Assembly (NCBI GenBank): GCA_044355085.1
Contig: JBIKYU010000004.1
Location: 1-52,507 of the forward strand
Source of the DNA: Rickettsiales bacterium
Lineage (GTDB): Bacteria; Pseudomonadota; Alphaproteobacteria; Rickettsiales; JBIKYU01
Length of the DNA stretch: 52,507 bases
Direction of reading: 5' to 3'
Shown: positions 18,858 to 39,803 of the stretch, piece after piece
How positions within the stretch are numbered: position 1 is the first letter of the stretch
Layout of the letters: every line of letters begins with the position of its first letter
Notes under the pieces: generated by a model
Seen by the model: the letters and a program-made list of their open reading frames with translations, nothing else
Databases searched by the model: none
Told to the model about the DNA's origin: nothing
Translations under genes and position numbers: made by a program

Positions 18858-21440
18858 GTGCAGTTAAATCAATTCACGGAAAAAGCCAGGAATATAATTA
18901 TAGCAGCGCAGAACCGTGCAGTGGCACAAGGTCACCAGAAATTTTCACCAGAACATATTTTGGCCATGTTACTTGATGATGCGGGTGAGGCAGGAGAAAA
19001 TCTTGCAGTTAGAGTTTTGCTATCAAGCGGTGCGCAGGTTGGCGGTATAAGGGAAGGATTGCAGCGGTTGTTGGCGGCTTTTCCGAAAATTTCAGGATCA
19101 GGTTCAGGTCAGATTTTTTTAGCAGCAGAGACGGCAAAGATTTTAGAAGAAGCTTTGAAGTTTGCACAAAAAGCACAGGATCAATTCGTCACATTGGAGC
19201 GTTTGCTGCAGGCTTTGGCGACAGTGGATTCTGCAGTTTCACGACTGTTGCGCGATAATGGTGTGAGCTTAGAAAAACTAGATGCAGCAATCGCGCTGAT
19301 GCGGCGGGGAAGAACGGCGGATAATGAGCAGGCGGAGGATAATTTCGAAGCTTTGCGCAAATATGCGACTGATCTTACGCAAGCAGCAGCGCAGGGAAAA
19401 TTAGATCCAGTAATTGGGCGCGATGAAGAAATTCGTAGAACAATTCAGGTTCTATCACGACGCACAAAAAATAATCCAGTTTTAATTGGCGAGCCAGGAG
19501 TCGGAAAAACCGCGGTGGTTGAGGGGTTGGCCGCGCGTATGGTTGCTGGTGATGTGCCAGAAAATATGAAAAATTGTCGCTTGCTGAGTTTAGATCTTGG
19601 GGCATTAATTGCGGGGGCAAAATTTCGCGGTGAATTTGAAGAGCGCTTGAAATCGGTGTTGAAGGAAATTCAAGCCGCTGAAGGTGAGGTAATTTTATTT
19701 ATCGACGAGCTGCATACGTTAGTTGGTGCTGGTGCGGCAGAGGGCGCGATGGATGCTTCAAATCTACTGAAGCCCGCTTTGGCGCGCGGAGAACTGCACT
19801 GCGTTGGTGCTACGACATTAAATGAATATCGAAAACATATCGAAAAAGATGCGGCGCTGGCGCGGAGATTTCAGACGATTTTTGTCTCGGAGCCAACGGT
19901 TGAAGACAGTATTTCGATATTGCGTGGCTTGAAAGAAAAATATGAACTGCATCACGGCGTGCAAATTGCAGATAGCGCTGTGGTTGCGGCAGCGACTTTG
20001 TCGAATCGTTATATAACTGATCGGTTTCTTCCTGATAAAGCGATAGATCTGATGGATGAAGCGGCAAGTCGTTTGCGGATGGAGGCTGATAGCAAGCCAG
20101 AGGAAATGGATGAACTTGATCGCAGAATTATTCAGTTAAAAATTGAAGCAGAAGTTTTGAAAAAAGAAAAAGATGCAGCTGCAAAGGAAAGATTAGAAAA
20201 AATAAATTCAGAACTTGAAGATCTGGGCCAGAAGGCCGCAGATTTCAACAGTAATTGGCAGGCTGAGAAATTAAAAATGCAGCGGGCGCAGAAGCTGAAA
20301 GAGCAAATCGATGCAGCGCGGCATGAGCTGGAAATTGTTCAGCGCAAAGGTGATTTAGCGCGCGCTGGAGAGATTACATACGGCGTGATTCCGCAATTGC
20401 AGAAAGATCTCGAAAATGCCGAGAAAGAGTCAGGAAAAATGCGGCTATTGCGTGAGTCGGTTGCGGCTGAGGATATTGCTGCGATTGTGTCGCGCTGGAC
20501 GGGAGTTCCGGTTGAGAAAATGCTGGAAGGAGAGCGAGAAAAATTAGTAAAAATGGAGGAAGTAATTGGCCAGACAGTTATTGGTCAGGCAGAAGCCATT
20601 CATGCGGTTAGTAATGCGGTAAGGCGCGCGCGTGCTGGTTTGCAGGATCAAGAGCGCCCGCTTGGTTCATTCTTGTTTTTAGGTCCAACGGGAGTTGGAA
20701 AAACGGAGCTCTCTAAAACATTGGCGCAGTTTTTATTCGATGATAAAGCAGCTTTGCTTAGAGTTGATATGTCGGAATATATGGAGAAACATGCGGTTTC
20801 GCGCTTGATTGGAGCGCCTCCAGGTTATGTTGGTTATGATGAAGGCGGCGCTTTGACTGAGGCGGTGCGTAGGCGTCCTTATCAAGTGATTTTATTTGAT
20901 GAGGTCGAGAAAGCACATCCCGATGTTTTCAATGTTCTGCTGCAGGTTCTGGATGAAGGAAGGCTTACTGACGGTCAGGGGCGCACGGTTGATTTTCGTA
21001 ACACGATTATAATTTTGACATCAAATTTGGGCTCAGATTTATTGGCTCATATGGCAGATGGTGCGGCGGTTGATCAAGTGCGTGCGCCAGTGATGGAAAT
21101 AGTTAAGCAGACATTTAGGCCGGAATTTTTAAATCGCTTGGATGAAATTATTTTGTTTCATCGTTTGGCGCGTTCGCATATGGGCGCAATTGTTGAGGTG
21201 CAGCTTGAGCGGCTGCGCTCTTTATTGTTGGCGCGCAATTTGACTTTGCAATTAACATCAGAGGCAAAAGAATGGTTGGCTGAGCGCGGTTATGATCAGA
21301 TTTACGGTGCGCGTCCGCTTAAGCGCGTTATCCAGCAATATGTACAAAATCCGCTCGCAGTGATGCTGTTGGATGGAAAAGTAAAAGCGGGCGAAACAGT
21401 AAAATTAGCGGTTAGTGAAGGGCAGCTAGTGTTCGCGTGA
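18858..21440 (+). CDS. clpB: ATP-dependent disaggregase ClpB
   Basis: Two AAA+ domains ([16 protein letters not shown]), coiled-coil middle domain, GYVGY pore loop. GTG start 18858 behind AAGGAG. Confidence 0.99.
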
Positions 21441-22175
21441 GGAAGCAGCAGCAGGCATTTGCACGAATTTCCGATTGGCTTGCGATTTTTTATGCAGAGT
21501 TTGAGTAATGGCTTGGCCTTCTTGTTGGCGTAGCACTGCAAGCAAGGCCAGGCCAAAATATCCAGGAATAGAAGTGCCGATTATCTCCCAAAAGCGGTAG
21601 GTTTTAATGAACCAGCGCTTGGTTATTGGCGGCGCATAGAGCGCACTTTGGCAGGATTCCAAAACCAAAGGAAATGCAGAAATTAGGTTGATAAGGTCGT
21701 GAGTGCTGAAGAAATTTCCGCGCGTTAATATGCGCTGACGAAAAAAACGCCAAGGGCTAAAGCGGTTTGGAACTAAAAGTAGAACTCGTCCTTGTGGTTT
21801 TAAAATTCGGCAGATTTCTTTTAGCAGTGTTTCGCGGTGGTGTGTGAATTCTAAAATATGAGCAACGATAACCATATCGGCGCAATGGTTGGGAAGTGGC
21901 AATAGGGACTCATAAGCAACACAAGAATGATGGCTTTTTGCAAGAGTAAGAGGCGGTTTCGAGGCAGCAGTTGGTAGAACATGAAATATGTTGTGTCCGC
22001 CTTCCTTGGCTATCGATAAGAAGGGCAAGGCATAGCCAATTCCAATGATTGTAGCTGGGGCGGAGTTAGGAAAAAGAGGCAAAAAAATACGTCGCAAGAT
22101 ACGAAATTGTAAGCGCCCGATGCGATCGGAATAAAAACTTTTGAATTCCGTTAGGCTGGGCCAGCTATTGCGCAT
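21426..22175 (-). CDS. Class I SAM-dependent methyltransferase-like protein (YafS-like)
   Basis: IIGIGYALPF, LPLPNHCADMVIVAHILEF, LKEICRILKPQGRVLLLVPN. Confidence 0.8.
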   Translation of the reverse strand: MRNSWPSLTEFKSFYSDRIGRLQFRILRRIFLPLFPNSAPATIIGIGYALPFLSIAKEGGHNIFHVLPTAASKPPLTLAKSHHSCVAYESLLPLPNHCADMVIVAHILEFTHHRETLLKEICRILKPQGRVLLLVPNRFSPWRFFRQRILTRGNFFSTHDLINLISAFPLVLESCQSALYAPPITKRWFIKTYRFWEIIGTSIPGYFGLALLAVLRQQEGQAITQTLHKKSQANRKFVQMPAAASSREH

Positions 22176-22252
22176 TTATTTACATTCCATGAAGGTTAGG
22201 AAGTCGAGCTATCTCTCGCTTCTGGTTAGCACATGGAACTGCAGTTAGACAA

Positions 22253-22283
22253 GAAAAGAAAAAAGGGCAGGAGAACCCTGCCC
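22253..22283 (-). terminator. Intrinsic terminator
   Basis: Minus strand GGGCAGG-GTTCT-CCTGCCC-TTTTTTCTTTTC. Confidence 0.85.
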
Positions 22284-22364
22284 CGTGTGAATATTGAAGA
22301 TCAATGCGCTATAGGAATGAGGAGGAAGGAAGGAAGGAAGAGGAATAATCGCGCATCAACCCTC
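22256..22364 (-). ncRNA. Candidate small RNA with pyrimidine-rich anti-SD loop
   Basis: -10-like TATATT 6 nt upstream of the stem; 14-bp stem that pairs fully only on the minus strand (G-U pairs); 41-nt UUCC/CCUCCU loop; own terminator. Confidence 0.65.
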
Positions 22365-22408
22365 GAAATGAATATAACCTGTGAATTGTGAAGACAATAT
22401 GACATTTT

Positions 22409-23338
22409 TCAACTTGGGGGTGATAAAGTTGTGGGCAAAGAAGATTTGCGACTGAATAGAGTGTTGGTGATTGTTGAGCTCGATCCGACTAAAGCGCCGC
22501 CAATGATGCAGATGAAGGCCATGATAAAACCAAGATTAAGCTCGATAACATCCAGGAGTGAAAGCCAAAAAATAGCAGATAGCGGGCCGATGTAAGAAAG
22601 CAAGCTAAGTGCTCGAATATTGCCGTGGCGAATTGCGTGTTTCCAAGCGATATAGGCGCTGCCGCTAGGTAAAAGCCCGAGAATAATTATGTAGGCAAGG
22701 CTGTTTGGTGGAGGAATTATGATTTCGTTTTCAAAAATAAAATGCAGCAGAGTTGAAAGGGCGGATGAGATAATAAAAACCAGCCCGAGGCTTTCTGATT
22801 GCACAGAAATATAGCGCGAACTTTTGTTGGAATAAAATGCCCAGCAAAAAGCAGCTAATATTGCGCAGACATGACCAATAGTGAATGAATGTCCTAAGTT
22901 TTCGCTTTGGATTTTTGCAAGAATAGATATGCCAGTTAAGCAGAGGAAAAGAGCAGCTTTTTCATTTTTTTGTAAAGGTTTTTTGCTTTGTTTTGCAGCC
23001 AGGAGCATGGAAATTACTTGCCAGCTATTGAGCAGCAGAAAAGCCTCGGCTGGTGGCGCTAAGCGTAGCGCAAAAATATAGAGAATATTGATGCCAAAAA
23101 TTCCCGTAAGGCTAAGGAGCAAATAAGGTGTGATGTTTTTTTGGCGCAGTAGTTTGAGTGGAGAAATTTTTTTTATTCTCCATAAAAAAAGAGACAGCGC
23201 GCTGGCGCAGGCAAACATCATTGCCGTCATTTGAAATCCAGGAACGCGGCCAGATAGAATGATTAGCGCTGGAGTGGTTCCCCAAAAAATTGGGCCGATC
23301 ATACCAATTAGCGTTGCTTTTAGCTCAGCTTGCGTCAT
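22409..23338 (-). CDS. DMT/EamA-family transporter
   Basis: About 10 TM helices, ALRLAPPAEAFLL, WAFYS, AWKHAIRHGNI. Start uncertain; ATG 23338 chosen. Confidence 0.85.
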   Translation of the reverse strand: MTQAELKATLIGMIGPIFWGTTPALIILSGRVPGFQMTAMMFACASALSLFLWRIKKISPLKLLRQKNITPYLLLSLTGIFGINILYIFALRLAPPAEAFLLLNSWQVISMLLAAKQSKKPLQKNEKAALFLCLTGISILAKIQSENLGHSFTIGHVCAILAAFCWAFYSNKSSRYISVQSESLGLVFIISSALSTLLHFIFENEIIIPPPNSLAYIIILGLLPSGSAYIAWKHAIRHGNIRALSLLSYIGPLSAIFWLSLLDVIELNLGFIMAFICIIGGALVGSSSTITNTLFSRKSSLPTTLSPPS

Positions 23339-23437
23339 TGTGTTTTGCTGTTGATGCACGAGAATATTTTTAGATTTTTTTGAAAAAAATAGTTTAAGGA
23401 GGGCGGCGAACATATGTAGATAAACAGAATGGTTCAA

Positions 23438-37506: not shown

Positions 37507-38049
37507 TTATTTTGTAACAAGTATATGTGAGAAAGCATTGACAACAGCGGCGATACGCACTGCAGATTGCGAACCGATTTTGCTAATTCCTGCTTTTCCG
37601 ACTTCATGTAAATGAGCTTCCATGCACATTCCGCAGCCATTTATCGCAGAAACAGCCAGACTCATAAGTTCAAAATCAACTTTGGCAATTTGTGGATTGC
37701 CAATAATATTCATGCGCAATTTGGCTGGTAGCGATTTAATTTCGGCATCATTTGATAAATGCACGAAGCGATAATAAACATTGTTCATCGCCATAATTGC
37801 AGCAGCAGCGCGCGCAGCATTTATATATTCCGCCGATAAAACGCTGCTTAAATCATTTTCTAATGCGGTAATTAAAACGGAGTTTTTTGTCGCATAGGCT
37901 GAGGCGAGAAAAATTCCTAGACGTTGTTCATCGCTTAAATCTGGCGCACCATCTGCATTTACGAGTGTGCCTAAATTCAGGCGAATATCTTTGGCGTAAT
38001 CTGGCAGAGAGTCACGCAATTGTTCAAGATGTGAAAGAATGTTGCTCAT
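37507..38049 (-). CDS. ahpD: Alkyl hydroperoxidase AhpD
   Basis: PDYAKDIRLNL, MAMNNVYYR, SAINGCGMCMEAH. Confidence 0.96.
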   Translation of the reverse strand: MSNILSHLEQLRDSLPDYAKDIRLNLGTLVNADGAPDLSDEQRLGIFLASAYATKNSVLITALENDLSSVLSAEYINAARAAAAIMAMNNVYYRFVHLSNDAEIKSLPAKLRMNIIGNPQIAKVDFELMSLAVSAINGCGMCMEAHLHEVGKAGISKIGSQSAVRIAAVVNAFSHILVTK

Positions 38050-38071
38050 AAAATCCTCGTTTTTTTAAATT

Positions 38072-38115
38072 GGGCGGCGTCTTGTAGTTATTCAGGAAAT
38101 ACTATGACGCCGCCC
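38072..38115. other. Intercistronic stem-loop between ahpC and ahpD
   Basis: Perfect 10-bp IR GGGCGGCGTC / GACGCCGCCC. Confidence 0.75.
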
Positions 38116-38123
38116 GTTTTTGC

Positions 38124-38663
38124 TTATGAAATTTTGATGGTGTCTTCGCCTTTTTGCCAGTTGCACGGGCAGAGCTCATCGGTTTGTAAGGCATCAAGGA
38201 CACGCAAAACTTCGCGCACATTGCGGCCAACATTTAGATCGGTAACCATGACGAATCTGATTATTCCTTCAGGATCGATGATAAAAGTTGCGCGCTGGGC
38301 TACGCCTTCTTGTGGATCGAGAATGCCAAGTGCGGTTGATAATTCGCGTTTAACATCAGCAAGCATCGGGAAGGGTAGATCATGCAAATCTTTGTGGTTT
38401 TGTCGCCAAGCCAGATGCACAAATTCTGAATCGGTGCTGGCGCCATAAACAACTGTGTCGCGGTCGGAAAATTCGCGCGATAATTTGCCAAATTCGGCAA
38501 TTTCAGTCGGGCAAACGAAGGTAAAATCTTTCGGCCAGAAAAATAAAACCAGCCATTTTCCGCGAGAGTTTTCTTGAGTGATTTCAGTAAAAGCATTTTT
38601 AATATCGGTTGAAATAGTTGCTTTTACGCGAAAATCAGGAAGTTTTTGACCGACGCTTAACAT
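38124..38663 (-). CDS. ahpC: Peroxiredoxin AhpC (AhpD-partnered type)
   Basis: FFWPKDFTFVCPTEI and DELCPCNW. Confidence 0.98.
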   Translation of the reverse strand: MLSVGQKLPDFRVKATISTDIKNAFTEITQENSRGKWLVLFFWPKDFTFVCPTEIAEFGKLSREFSDRDTVVYGASTDSEFVHLAWRQNHKDLHDLPFPMLADVKRELSTALGILDPQEGVAQRATFIIDPEGIIRFVMVTDLNVGRNVREVLRVLDALQTDELCPCNWQKGEDTIKIS

Positions 38664-38690
38664 TTTTTTCTCCTTAGTTTTTGATTAAAG

Positions 38691-38822
38691 TTAGGCTTTG
38701 AGAGAAGAGTTTTTCTTGAGAAGTTTTCTGCACTCACATTGGGCTTCTTTAGAAATTGTCTTGCTTTCAGCAGCAAGCTGCATCTGACAAAACAACAGCC
38801 AGGAATCGATATCGTGAGACAT
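38691..38822 (-). CDS. Candidate 43-aa small protein upstream of ahpC
   Basis: AAGGAG RBS 8 nt before the ATG; MSHDIDSWLLFCQMQLAAESKTISKEAQCECRKLLKKNSSLKA*; below the ORF-track cutoff. Confidence 0.55.
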   Translation of the reverse strand: MSHDIDSWLLFCQMQLAAESKTISKEAQCECRKLLKKNSSLKA

Positions 38823-38879
38823 ATAGATTCTCCTTGAGGGTTTAAATTTAAGTAGATGCAATATGCGCCAAAATTTTCT

Positions 38880-38925
38880 ATTGATAAAATATATTGTTTA
38901 AAAGGTTATAATTGAGAAAATCGAA
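38880..38925. promoter_or_regulatory. Probable OxyR operator
   Basis: Two LysR T-N11-A boxes (ATTGATAAAATATAT and ATTGAGAAAATCGAA) 31 bp apart, between divergent ahpC and oxyR. Confidence 0.6.
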
Positions 38926-38927
38926 TT

Positions 38928-39803
38928 ATGAATTTGCGTGATCTTGAATATATTTTGGCGATTGCAGAGTTTAAAAACATGGCAAAAGCCGCAGAAAACT
39001 GCAATGTAAGCCAATCAACATTAAGTATTCAGTTGAAAAAACTTGAAGGAGAATTGGGCGTTGTTTTATTCGAGCGCAATAATAAACGGGTGATTTTATC
39101 GCAAGAAGGTTTGGCGATATTGCCTTATGCAGAGGAAATAATTCGTAATGCGAAAGCCATGCGAATTAAGGCAAAGTCGTTGCGCGCCCCTGAGTCTCTG
39201 CCGCTTAAGATTGGTGCTTTTCCTACGCTTGCGCCTTATTGGTTTCCAAAATTTGTGCGCCAAATTCGAAAGAATTTTCCGCATTTGCAATTGATATTGA
39301 TTGAAGAAAAAACCGATTCTTTGTTGGAAAAACTACATGCGGGAGAAATAGATTGCGCGGCGTTGGCTTATCCTGTTGAGGGCAAAGATTTGGCTTATAA
39401 AAAAATATTTAAAGAGCCGTTTTTCTTGGCGATTTCTAATAATCATGATTTGGCGAAGCGTAAATTTATTCGTCCAGAAGAAATCGCTGATGAAGAAATT
39501 TTGCTTCTGGATGAGGGGCATTGTTTGCGCGGGCAAGCGCTGGATTTTTGTTTGCGCGTGCAGTTGCGCGAAGCACAGAATTACCGCGCCACAAGCTTAG
39601 AAACTTTGCGGAATATGGTGCGTGCAGGTTCTGGAATGACGATTATTCCTGAATGTGCAGTTCCAGGAAAAGATTATGGAATTAGTTATATTCCATTCAA
39701 AAAGCCTGAACCTGGTAGAACCATTGCAATTTACTGGCGCAATATGAATCCGCGCGCAGATTGGATCAAAAAATTGGCGGATTCTTTGGAAGATAAAAAA
39801 TGA
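38928..39803 (+). CDS. oxyR: Hydrogen peroxide sensor OxyR
   Basis: LysR HTH; GHCLRGQALDFC redox Cys pair; ATSLETLRNMV; divergent from ahpCD. Confidence 0.95.
   Translation: MNLRDLEYILAIAEFKNMAKAAENCNVSQSTLSIQLKKLEGELGVVLFERNNKRVILSQEGLAILPYAEEIIRNAKAMRIKAKSLRAPESLPLKIGAFPTLAPYWFPKFVRQIRKNFPHLQLILIEEKTDSLLEKLHAGEIDCAALAYPVEGKDLAYKKIFKEPFFLAISNNHDLAKRKFIRPEEIADEEILLLDEGHCLRGQALDFCLRVQLREAQNYRATSLETLRNMVRAGSGMTIIPECAVPGKDYGISYIPFKKPEPGRTIAIYWRNMNPRADWIKKLADSLEDKK

What the first reader, a model, noticed from the sequence alone, without database searches (positions are those of the whole stretch)
22253..22400. Candidate sRNA displaying seven anti-GGA motifs in one large loop
Seen (minus): TATATT box, then GAGGGUUGAUGCGC pairing 14/14 with GCGCAUUGAUCUUC. 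Five pairs are G-U, so the stem forms fully only on this strand. The loop GAUUAUUCCUCUUCCUUCCUUCCUUCCUCCUCAUUCCUAUA contains six UUCC (four in tandem) and a CCUCCU anti-SD, followed by a short linker and a textbook terminator. Established: alphaproteobacterial cuckoo and MmgR/alpha-r8 (suhB) sRNAs expose CU-rich anti-SD loops. Inference: a trans-acting RBS-binding regulator or sponge for GGA-rich RNAs, with a multivalent single-loop design and a slippage-prone UUCC repeat. This is the best candidate for an undescribed element in the window. Alternatives are a processed 3' UTR of the DMT gene or an attenuator for the downstream methyltransferase.
Basis: partly seen in the sequence, partly recalled or inferred. 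Interest (0 to 1): 0.72.

Follow-up and report, generated by a model that had tools for sequence, protein, structure and literature searches.

The report
Three-copy small RNA with anti-Shine-Dalgarno loop
An uncultured Rickettsiales-like bacterium carries three related copies of a predicted small RNA gene. Each has a conserved upstream control sequence and one large loop of seven or eight motifs complementary to ribosome-binding sites, so it likely silences many messenger RNAs; no relative was found in the other genomes searched.

Summary
The structure is real and not chance (minus-strand fold z about -4; the stem has four G-U pairs, not five). New here: two paralogues lie in tandem on another contig. 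All three share the stem, the terminator and, in exact ungapped register, an upstream block with the palindrome CAACTT-N10-AAGTTG over a TTGAA -35-like box, found nowhere else in the genome. This points to stand-alone, co-regulated sRNA genes of about 110-125 nt on the minus strand. It argues against an attenuator or a plus-strand CsrA sponge.

The host is Rickettsiales-like and uses Shine-Dalgarno sites. It has CsrA and FliW; Hfq and ProQ were not found (90% complete). No Rfam family reaches threshold; cuckoo/ar14, suhB/MmgR and ar15/AbcR fail. No homologue turned up in 230 order and 150 class genomes.

Best reading: a chaperone-free, trans-acting translational repressor whose open 36-41 nt UUCC/CCUCC loop pairs with AGGA/GGAG sites, like CJnc190, RepG or NfeR1 but with all seeds in one loop. 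Target leads are weak: an XRE regulator for this copy, and a nine-gene LRR/ankyrin family with a shared leader for the paralogues. There is no transcript evidence.

The parts
22405..22454 (-). Conserved upstream block shared with both C45 paralogues; lies in the last codons of the EamA/DMT gene
   Evidence: 32 of 50 nt identical to C45b without gaps at the same distance from the stem; 0 of 300,000 random genomic windows reach this; 12-nt run identical in all three copies
22410..22431 (.). Palindrome CAACTT-N10-AAGTTG, predicted transcription-factor site overlapping the -35 box (regulator unknown)
   Evidence: Exact form occurs twice in the genome (here and C45b), and with one mismatch at C45a; a PWM built from these three sites scores them 31-33 and the next genomic hit 17
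22385..22412 (-). Sigma70-like promoter TTGAAA-16-CACAAT; predicted start at G22379
   Evidence: Only consensus hit in 21800-22900 (1 found, 2.2 expected by chance, so weak alone); same register as TTGAAG/TTGCAG-16-TACACT in C45; an 8-nt identical run there is matched by 164 of 200,000 random windows
22371..22376 (-).
   Evidence: Sequence; C45 has TAGAGT one base out of register and no matching -35
22351..22364 (-). 5' arm of the 14-bp closing stem
   Evidence: 4 of 14 pairs vary on one side only, between G-C or A-U and G-U
22310..22350 (-). 41-nt unpaired C/U-rich loop with 6 UUCC / 7 UCC and CCUCCU: predicted multivalent anti-Shine-Dalgarno seed
   Evidence: the host 16S 3' end reads ACCUCCUUU
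22296..22309 (-). 3' arm of the closing stem
22254..22284 (-). Intrinsic terminator hairpin (8 bp, invariant in the three copies) and U tract; homology between copies ends here
22409..23437 (-). Upstream neighbour: EamA/YddG-like DMT transporter gene; would share the terminator
21426..22175 (-). Downstream neighbour: class I SAM methyltransferase gene; not part of the element
   Evidence: none of 29 orthologous loci carries the RNA

Best explanation
This is one of three related copies of a likely stand-alone small RNA gene, predicted to be transcribed from the minus strand under a shared upstream regulator site and likely to repress translation by pairing its open C/U-rich loop with the Shine-Dalgarno regions of many mRNAs. 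Shown: the fold, the three copies, the conserved upstream block and terminator, Shine-Dalgarno use in the genome, and the loop's complementarity to those sites. Inferred: transcription (110-125 nt), control by a dimeric factor at the palindrome, and the mechanism. The 14-bp stem would hold a 36-41 nt pyrimidine tract permanently unpaired. Its 7-8 overlapping UCCU/CCUCC registers would give fast nucleation on AAGGA/GGAG sites without Hfq or ProQ and block 30S entry. The few non-repeat loop bases, which differ between the C30 and C45 copies, would tune which mRNAs are bound best.
For: Fold z -4.4, -6.1 and -5.9 for the three copies on the minus strand, against -0.7, -2.2 and -2.7 on plus. The four pairing-preserving stem changes are G-C/A-U to G-U, tolerated only on this strand. 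Homology runs from the upstream block to the U tract. A 4-nt indel between C45a and C45b and the lack of a shared ORF argue against coding. The genome has a clear SD peak at -12 to -9. The C30 loop has perfect 6/7/8-nt matches in the SD window of 265/101/41 of 1380 called genes, against 53/9/2 in coding controls (expected of any anti-SD sequence, so this shows capacity, not function). No hfq or proQ found. Precedents read as passages: CJnc190 and RepG use a C/U-rich loop in bacteria lacking Hfq/ProQ (PMC8687705); NfeR1 is Hfq-independent with redundant anti-SD seeds (PMC10746234).
Against: No transcript evidence. There are only two independent sequences and no pair changed on both sides (0 of 22). 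No homologue outside this genome. Whole-loop duplex energies were no better on start regions than on coding controls (-8.9 vs -8.85 kcal/mol), and the real loop's difference (-0.28) lay within that of 30 shuffled loops (0.13 +/- 0.37). No target stands out after correction. Gene starts come from my own rough caller. The genome is 90% complete, so hfq could be missing from the assembly.
Confidence: 0.7

Rival explanations
1. The RNA is made from the minus strand but acts in the CsrA circuit: its anti-GGA loop masks CsrA sites on mRNAs or soaks up a GGA-rich CsrA-titrating RNA.
For: The genome encodes CsrA and FliW in a flgK-flgL-fliW-flagellin-like cluster. CsrA sites and SD sites share GGA (recalled).
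Against: No GGA-rich intergenic RNA candidate comparable to the antisense of these loci was seen (output partly cut). The flagellin leader has one GGA, in its SD. CsrA is found in 28 of 41 genomes of the order sample, yet the RNA was found in none of the others.
Confidence: 0.1
2. The functional RNA is the plus strand, an RsmY/CsrB-like CsrA sponge with eight GGA motifs.
For: CsrA is present. The antisense strands of the three loci are the most GGA-dense intergenic spots. Csr/Rsm RNAs are often multicopy (recalled).
Against: The U tract, the conserved upstream block and the wobble changes all point to the minus strand. On plus the hairpin is preceded by an A run, not followed by U, and similarity between copies stops at that end. 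The window copy's plus-strand fold is not better than shuffles.
Confidence: 0.04
3. It is a cis element or a processed 3' end of the upstream mRNA (DMT here, recJ on C45), or an attenuator for the methyltransferase.
For: The window copy and C45b both lie behind a co-oriented gene and would supply its terminator.
Against: The upstream block is conserved between a coding and an intergenic setting. C45a was duplicated with 118 nt of upstream DNA and has no gene directly in front. Neither C45 copy has a co-oriented gene behind it. 0 of 29 methyltransferase loci in relatives carry it.
Confidence: 0.07
4. It is a protein-binding or ribosome-related decoy (a 16S 3'-tail mimic or a pyrimidine-tract ligand), or a functionless duplicated scrap with a slipping microsatellite.
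For: The loop resembles the 16S tail, no specific target is proven, and the repeat slips.
Against: Stem, terminator and upstream palindrome are kept between copies whose intervening 40 nt have drifted to 35-40% identity, which implies selection. No protein partner is suggested by the neighbours.
Confidence: 0.09

Closest known systems
CJnc190 (Campylobacter jejuni) and RepG (Helicobacter pylori)
   Same: One C/U-rich loop that pairs with a G-rich RBS or 5' UTR, in hosts lacking Hfq and ProQ (PMC8687705 passages)
   Different: Other phylum; no Rfam match; here there are three copies, a UUCC-periodic loop closed by a 14-bp stem, and a separate terminator; no antisense partner is known
Cuckoo / alpha-r14 family (NfeR1, RSs0680/CcsR; RF02344)
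   Same: Alphaproteobacterial, multicopy, redundant anti-SD seeds; NfeR1 is Hfq-independent
   Different: Cuckoo has 2-4 small hairpins, each with CCUCCUCCC in a 9-27 nt loop. Here there is one 36-41 nt loop, no CCUCCUCCC in the window copy, and no RF02344 match at these loci
suhB / MmgR (alpha-r8; RF00519)
   Same: Anti-SD tract ahead of a GGGC-type terminator
   Different: The C45 copies score 17 bits against a gathering score of 41, mostly from the terminator; the window copy has no match. MmgR is 77 nt and Hfq-dependent
AbcR1/2 (alpha-r15; RF02345)
   Same: 110-120 nt, tandem paralogues with own promoters, CU-rich anti-SD motifs
   Different: Three stem-loops, two seeds, Hfq-binding; no RF02345 match at these loci
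CsrB/RsmY/RsmZ CsrA sponges
   Same: Multicopy; the antisense strand is GGA-rich; the host has CsrA
   Different: The predicted transcribed strand has no GGA; no Rfam match

Membership tests
Cuckoo / alpha-r14 | 2-4 adjacent hairpins, each with a 9-27 nt loop | tested here: not met
   One stem with a 36-41 nt loop plus terminator; definition from PMC4615179 passages
Cuckoo / alpha-r14 | Loop motif CCUCCUCCC | tested here: not met
   Absent from the window copy. The C45 loops end in CCUCCUCCU, one base off
Cuckoo / alpha-r14 | RF02344 score at or above 58.8 bits | tested here: not met
   No match at the three loci at E <= 1
suhB / MmgR (alpha-r8) | RF00519 score at or above 41 bits | tested here: not met
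   17.3 and 16.6 bits for the C45 copies, none for the window copy
suhB / MmgR (alpha-r8) | Hfq dependence | tested here: inconclusive
   No hfq found in a 90%-complete genome; binding cannot be tested here
AbcR (alpha-r15) | RF02345 score at or above 40 bits; three stem-loops with two seeds | tested here: not met
CsrB/RsmY/RsmZ | Several GGA motifs on the transcribed strand, ending in a terminator | tested here: not met
   0 GGA on the strand with the terminator, 8 on the other; strand evidence
Trans-acting anti-SD sRNAs (functional class) | Unpaired C/U-rich seed complementary to SD sites | tested here: met
Trans-acting anti-SD sRNAs (functional class) | Own promoter and terminator | tested here: inconclusive
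   Conserved in sequence across three copies; not shown to work
Trans-acting anti-SD sRNAs (functional class) | Discrete transcript and repression of a target by base pairing | not testable with these tools
   Needs stranded reads and reporter assays
Type I antitoxin or leader-peptide attenuator | Conserved small ORF overlapping on either strand | tested here: not met
   Short ORFs differ between copies and are frameshifted by the 4-nt indel

The most novel reading that the evidence does not exclude
A lineage-specific sRNA family of an early-branching Rickettsiales acts as a chaperone-free master switch. One regulator turns on three RNAs whose slippage-tunable anti-SD loops are addressed by a few unique bases: the C45 pair to the shared 5' leader of a nine-gene LRR/ankyrin family of likely secreted host-targeting proteins, and the window copy to an XRE regulator. 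This would be RNA control of a whole effector set through a duplicated leader.
Probability: 0.2. Interest if true: 0.72.

Novelty: new variant of a known kind. Interest (0 to 1): 0.47.

Why it matters
Base-pairing sRNAs have been reported in Rickettsia, whose genomes lack hfq, and whether they need a chaperone is left open there (PMC5105140 passages). This family gives a concrete design for working without a chaperone: all seeds in one very large, permanently open loop, with seed number changed by repeat slippage. It comes with a private upstream motif and two testable target leads. Its reach is limited because it is so far known from one uncultured genome and works, most likely, by a familiar mechanism.

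Tried and rejected
Rfam: 0 matches at gathering in the window. Only sub-threshold, terminator-driven matches at E <= 10.

Homologue searches, all negative:
- BLASTN in 40 other genomes of the order gave only short matches, best E 0.001.
- The full model R1 matched in 31 of 150 order genomes at E <= 0.05. I inspected the best match of 29 of those 31; nearly all were generic terminators and none had the loop-in-stem layout.
- The stem-loop model R2 matched in 8 of 150 order genomes, 0 of 80 further order genomes and 5 of 150 class genomes, at most 26.5 bits against 81-95 for its own copies. All 13 matches overlap long ORFs. Both models rest on three sequences and would miss distant kin.
- Exact patterns: 0 and 17 stretches in the species-genome collection, none with the layout; 1 metagenome stretch without the stem; 3 viral stretches at <= 12.5 bits; no plasmid match.
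- One search was too loose (196 of 400 other genomes matched, similar to its reversed control). One search missed the three own copies because the gap was too short. Neither counts as a negative.
- Synteny at the methyltransferase: 0 of 29 loci (partly cut).

Reads: no RNA holder listed.

Regulator: no CRP/FNR-type HTH found. Two LysR genes exist and the palindrome fits the loose T-N11-A rule (recalled), which is too weak to count. No further site of the motif in the genome. No DUF1127 protein found.

Targets: whole-loop energy ranking was dominated by GA-rich leaders and showed no enrichment.

Literature: nine searches listed no description of such an RNA. They cover an open-access library only and cannot search by sequence. 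No supplements were read; sRNA lists in supplements could bear on novelty. Earlier scan notes held nothing on this element.

Full report
Observation. The minus strand of 22250-22400 folds as described: a 14-bp stem (22364-22351 with 22309-22296), an unpaired 41-nt loop, an 11-nt linker and a terminator hairpin with a U tract. The energy is -34.8 kcal/mol, z = -3.88, with 0 of 200 shuffles as good; the plus strand gives z = -1.30. The loop holds six UUCC, seven UCC and CCUCCU; the stem has four G-U pairs, not five. It is the only (TTCC)4 run in the genome. Rfam gives nothing at gathering level and only terminator-driven noise below it.

Host. The genome is 1.64 Mb, 43% G+C and 90% complete, with a permuted tmRNA. 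No same-family or same-genus genome was offered among its relatives. It encodes CsrA and FliW beside flagellar genes. Hfq, ProQ and DUF1127 were not found. In a sample of the order that includes this genome, CsrA is in 28 of 41 and Hfq in 9 of 41. Shine-Dalgarno motifs peak at -12 to -9, and the 16S tail is ACCUCCUUU.

Three copies. Two paralogues lie on contig C45 between recJ and dciA (2036-2149 and 2860-2973, minus; 75-78% identical to the window copy). They are a duplication of about 230 bp (118 nt upstream plus the RNA) and differ by one 4-nt repeat unit. All fold alike (z -4.4, -6.1, -5.9 on minus; -0.7, -2.2, -2.7 on plus). Of 22 pairs, 16 never vary, 4 change on one side between G-C or A-U and G-U, 2 are unpaired in C45 in this alignment, and none changes on both sides. 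So there is no formal covariation, but the wobble changes are tolerated only on the minus strand. No ORF is shared, and the 4-nt indel breaks the frames.

Own control region. Anchored on the stem and without gaps, the window copy and C45b share 32 of 50 nt at -90 to -41; 0 of 300,000 random windows reach that. The 40 nt next to the stem have drifted to 35-40% identity. The block contains CAACTT-N10-AAGTTG (22431-22410). This palindrome is exact only here and at C45b, and one base off at C45a. With one mismatch allowed there are 9 sites, about what other spacings give. A PWM of the three sites finds nothing else near their score (31-33 against 17). The palindrome overlaps TTGAAA-16-CACAAT, matched in register by TTGAAG/TTGCAG-16-TACACT on C45, with a conserved G at 22379 as the candidate start. 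In the window the block lies inside the DMT gene's last codons, and on C45 it is intergenic, so it belongs to the RNA gene. The regulator is unknown. That the palindrome is a protein site rather than a small RNA hairpin is an inference.

Relatives. None was found. The models built from the three copies gave only generic terminators or matches inside ORFs: R1 in 150 order genomes, and R2 in 230 order and 150 class genomes. Pattern scans of the genome, metagenome and viral collections and a plasmid BLAST gave chance hits or nothing. The RNA is not beside the methyltransferase in 29 relatives. Two pattern searches were uninformative. The models are narrow, so this means 'not found in those searched'.

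How it likely works. The stem presents a long pyrimidine tract that cannot fold on itself, carrying 7-8 overlapping UCC units. The window loop matches the SD window of 265, 101 and 41 of 1380 called genes over 6, 7 and 8 nt, against 53, 9 and 2 coding controls; any anti-SD sequence would do this. Against the reading, whole-loop duplex energies did not separate start regions from coding controls. By analogy with CJnc190/RepG (PMC8687705, passages) and NfeR1 (PMC10746234, passages), the RNA would block ribosome entry on many mRNAs without a chaperone. Repression is inferred, not shown.

Target leads. (a) Window copy: a 14-nt perfect match covers the SD just before the start of an XRE-type HTH gene (G000:C117:15899 minus). 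Loops with the nine non-repeat bases randomised reach 14 nt or more in 72 of 3000 trials, before allowing for the several tests I ran. (b) C45 copies: the two non-repeat loop segments pair, in order and with G-U pairs, with two motifs in a leader shared by LRR/ankyrin genes, several ending in CaaX-like tails (label recalled). The two-motif pattern, drawn up after seeing the data, occurs 10 times in the genome: 8 leaders and the 2 RNAs. This nine-member set is the only leader family larger than two among 1380 starts. For the eight leaders tested, 2 of 2261 randomised loops gave as large a median gain. Against it: the family was picked after the fact and its leaders share ancestry; randomised loops gave some single gene a gain above the family median in all trials and above its maximum in 96%; the C45 loops have no perfect match longer than 9 nt; and the window copy gains nothing on this family. 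These are leads, not findings.

Rivals. A plus-strand CsrA sponge was taken seriously because these loci are the most GGA-dense intergenic spots and CsrA is present. Terminator, upstream block and wobbles all point the other way, and the minus strand has no GGA. A role in masking CsrA sites remains possible but has no partner RNA in view. Attenuator and pure 3'-UTR readings do not fit the C45 copies.

Comparison and verdict. It works like known anti-SD sRNAs but is not a member of cuckoo/alpha-r14 (PMC4615179, passages), suhB/MmgR or AbcR (PMC7143759, passages). Nine literature searches listed no description (listings only, apart from the five papers read as passages). Verdict: a real, apparently undescribed orphan sRNA family of three, a new architectural variant of a known kind, with no expression or target proof. 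Interest 0.47.

Noticed in passing
G000 C91:525+, C80:10114+, C80:2145-, C10:10906-, C10:9838-, C64:31174+, C64:32839+, C15:3344-, C15:~490- (L112-L117): Nine LRR or ankyrin genes, several with CaaX-like C-termini, share a promoter-plus-leader cassette of about 150 bp (TTGACA box, 74-88% identity): a likely co-regulated set of secreted host-targeting proteins.
   Followed up: partly
L158 (G000:C121:444-522, +): The 3' UTR of rpmG carries UUUCCUCCUCCU directly before a strong terminator; suhB model 21 bits, under the 41 cut-off. Possible further anti-SD RNA.
   Followed up: partly
L009 (G000:C95:19766-20008) and L013 (G000:C26:3523-5714): A stand-alone csrA, and fliW between an flgL-like gene and flagellin. 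CsrA is found in 28 of 41 genomes of the order sample; a targeted literature search listed no paper on it in this order.
   Followed up: partly
G000:C93:2760-2990 (+), L047/L179: Strongly structured intergenic stretch behind a cold-shock-like gene, weakly hit by two RNA models (18-20 bits); it has no C/U-rich loop.
   Followed up: no
window 37507-39803: LysR gene divergent from two genes that look like ahpC/ahpD (by eye from the N-termini), likely oxyR.
   Followed up: no
G000:C18:18568-18800: Repeats of about 36 nt with unique spacers that look like a CRISPR array (seen).
   Followed up: no
L150 (WOR-3 MAG contig), 658-742: A run of about six TTCC units ahead of a hairpin and terminator; layout differs from the element and is probably unrelated.
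   Followed up: partly
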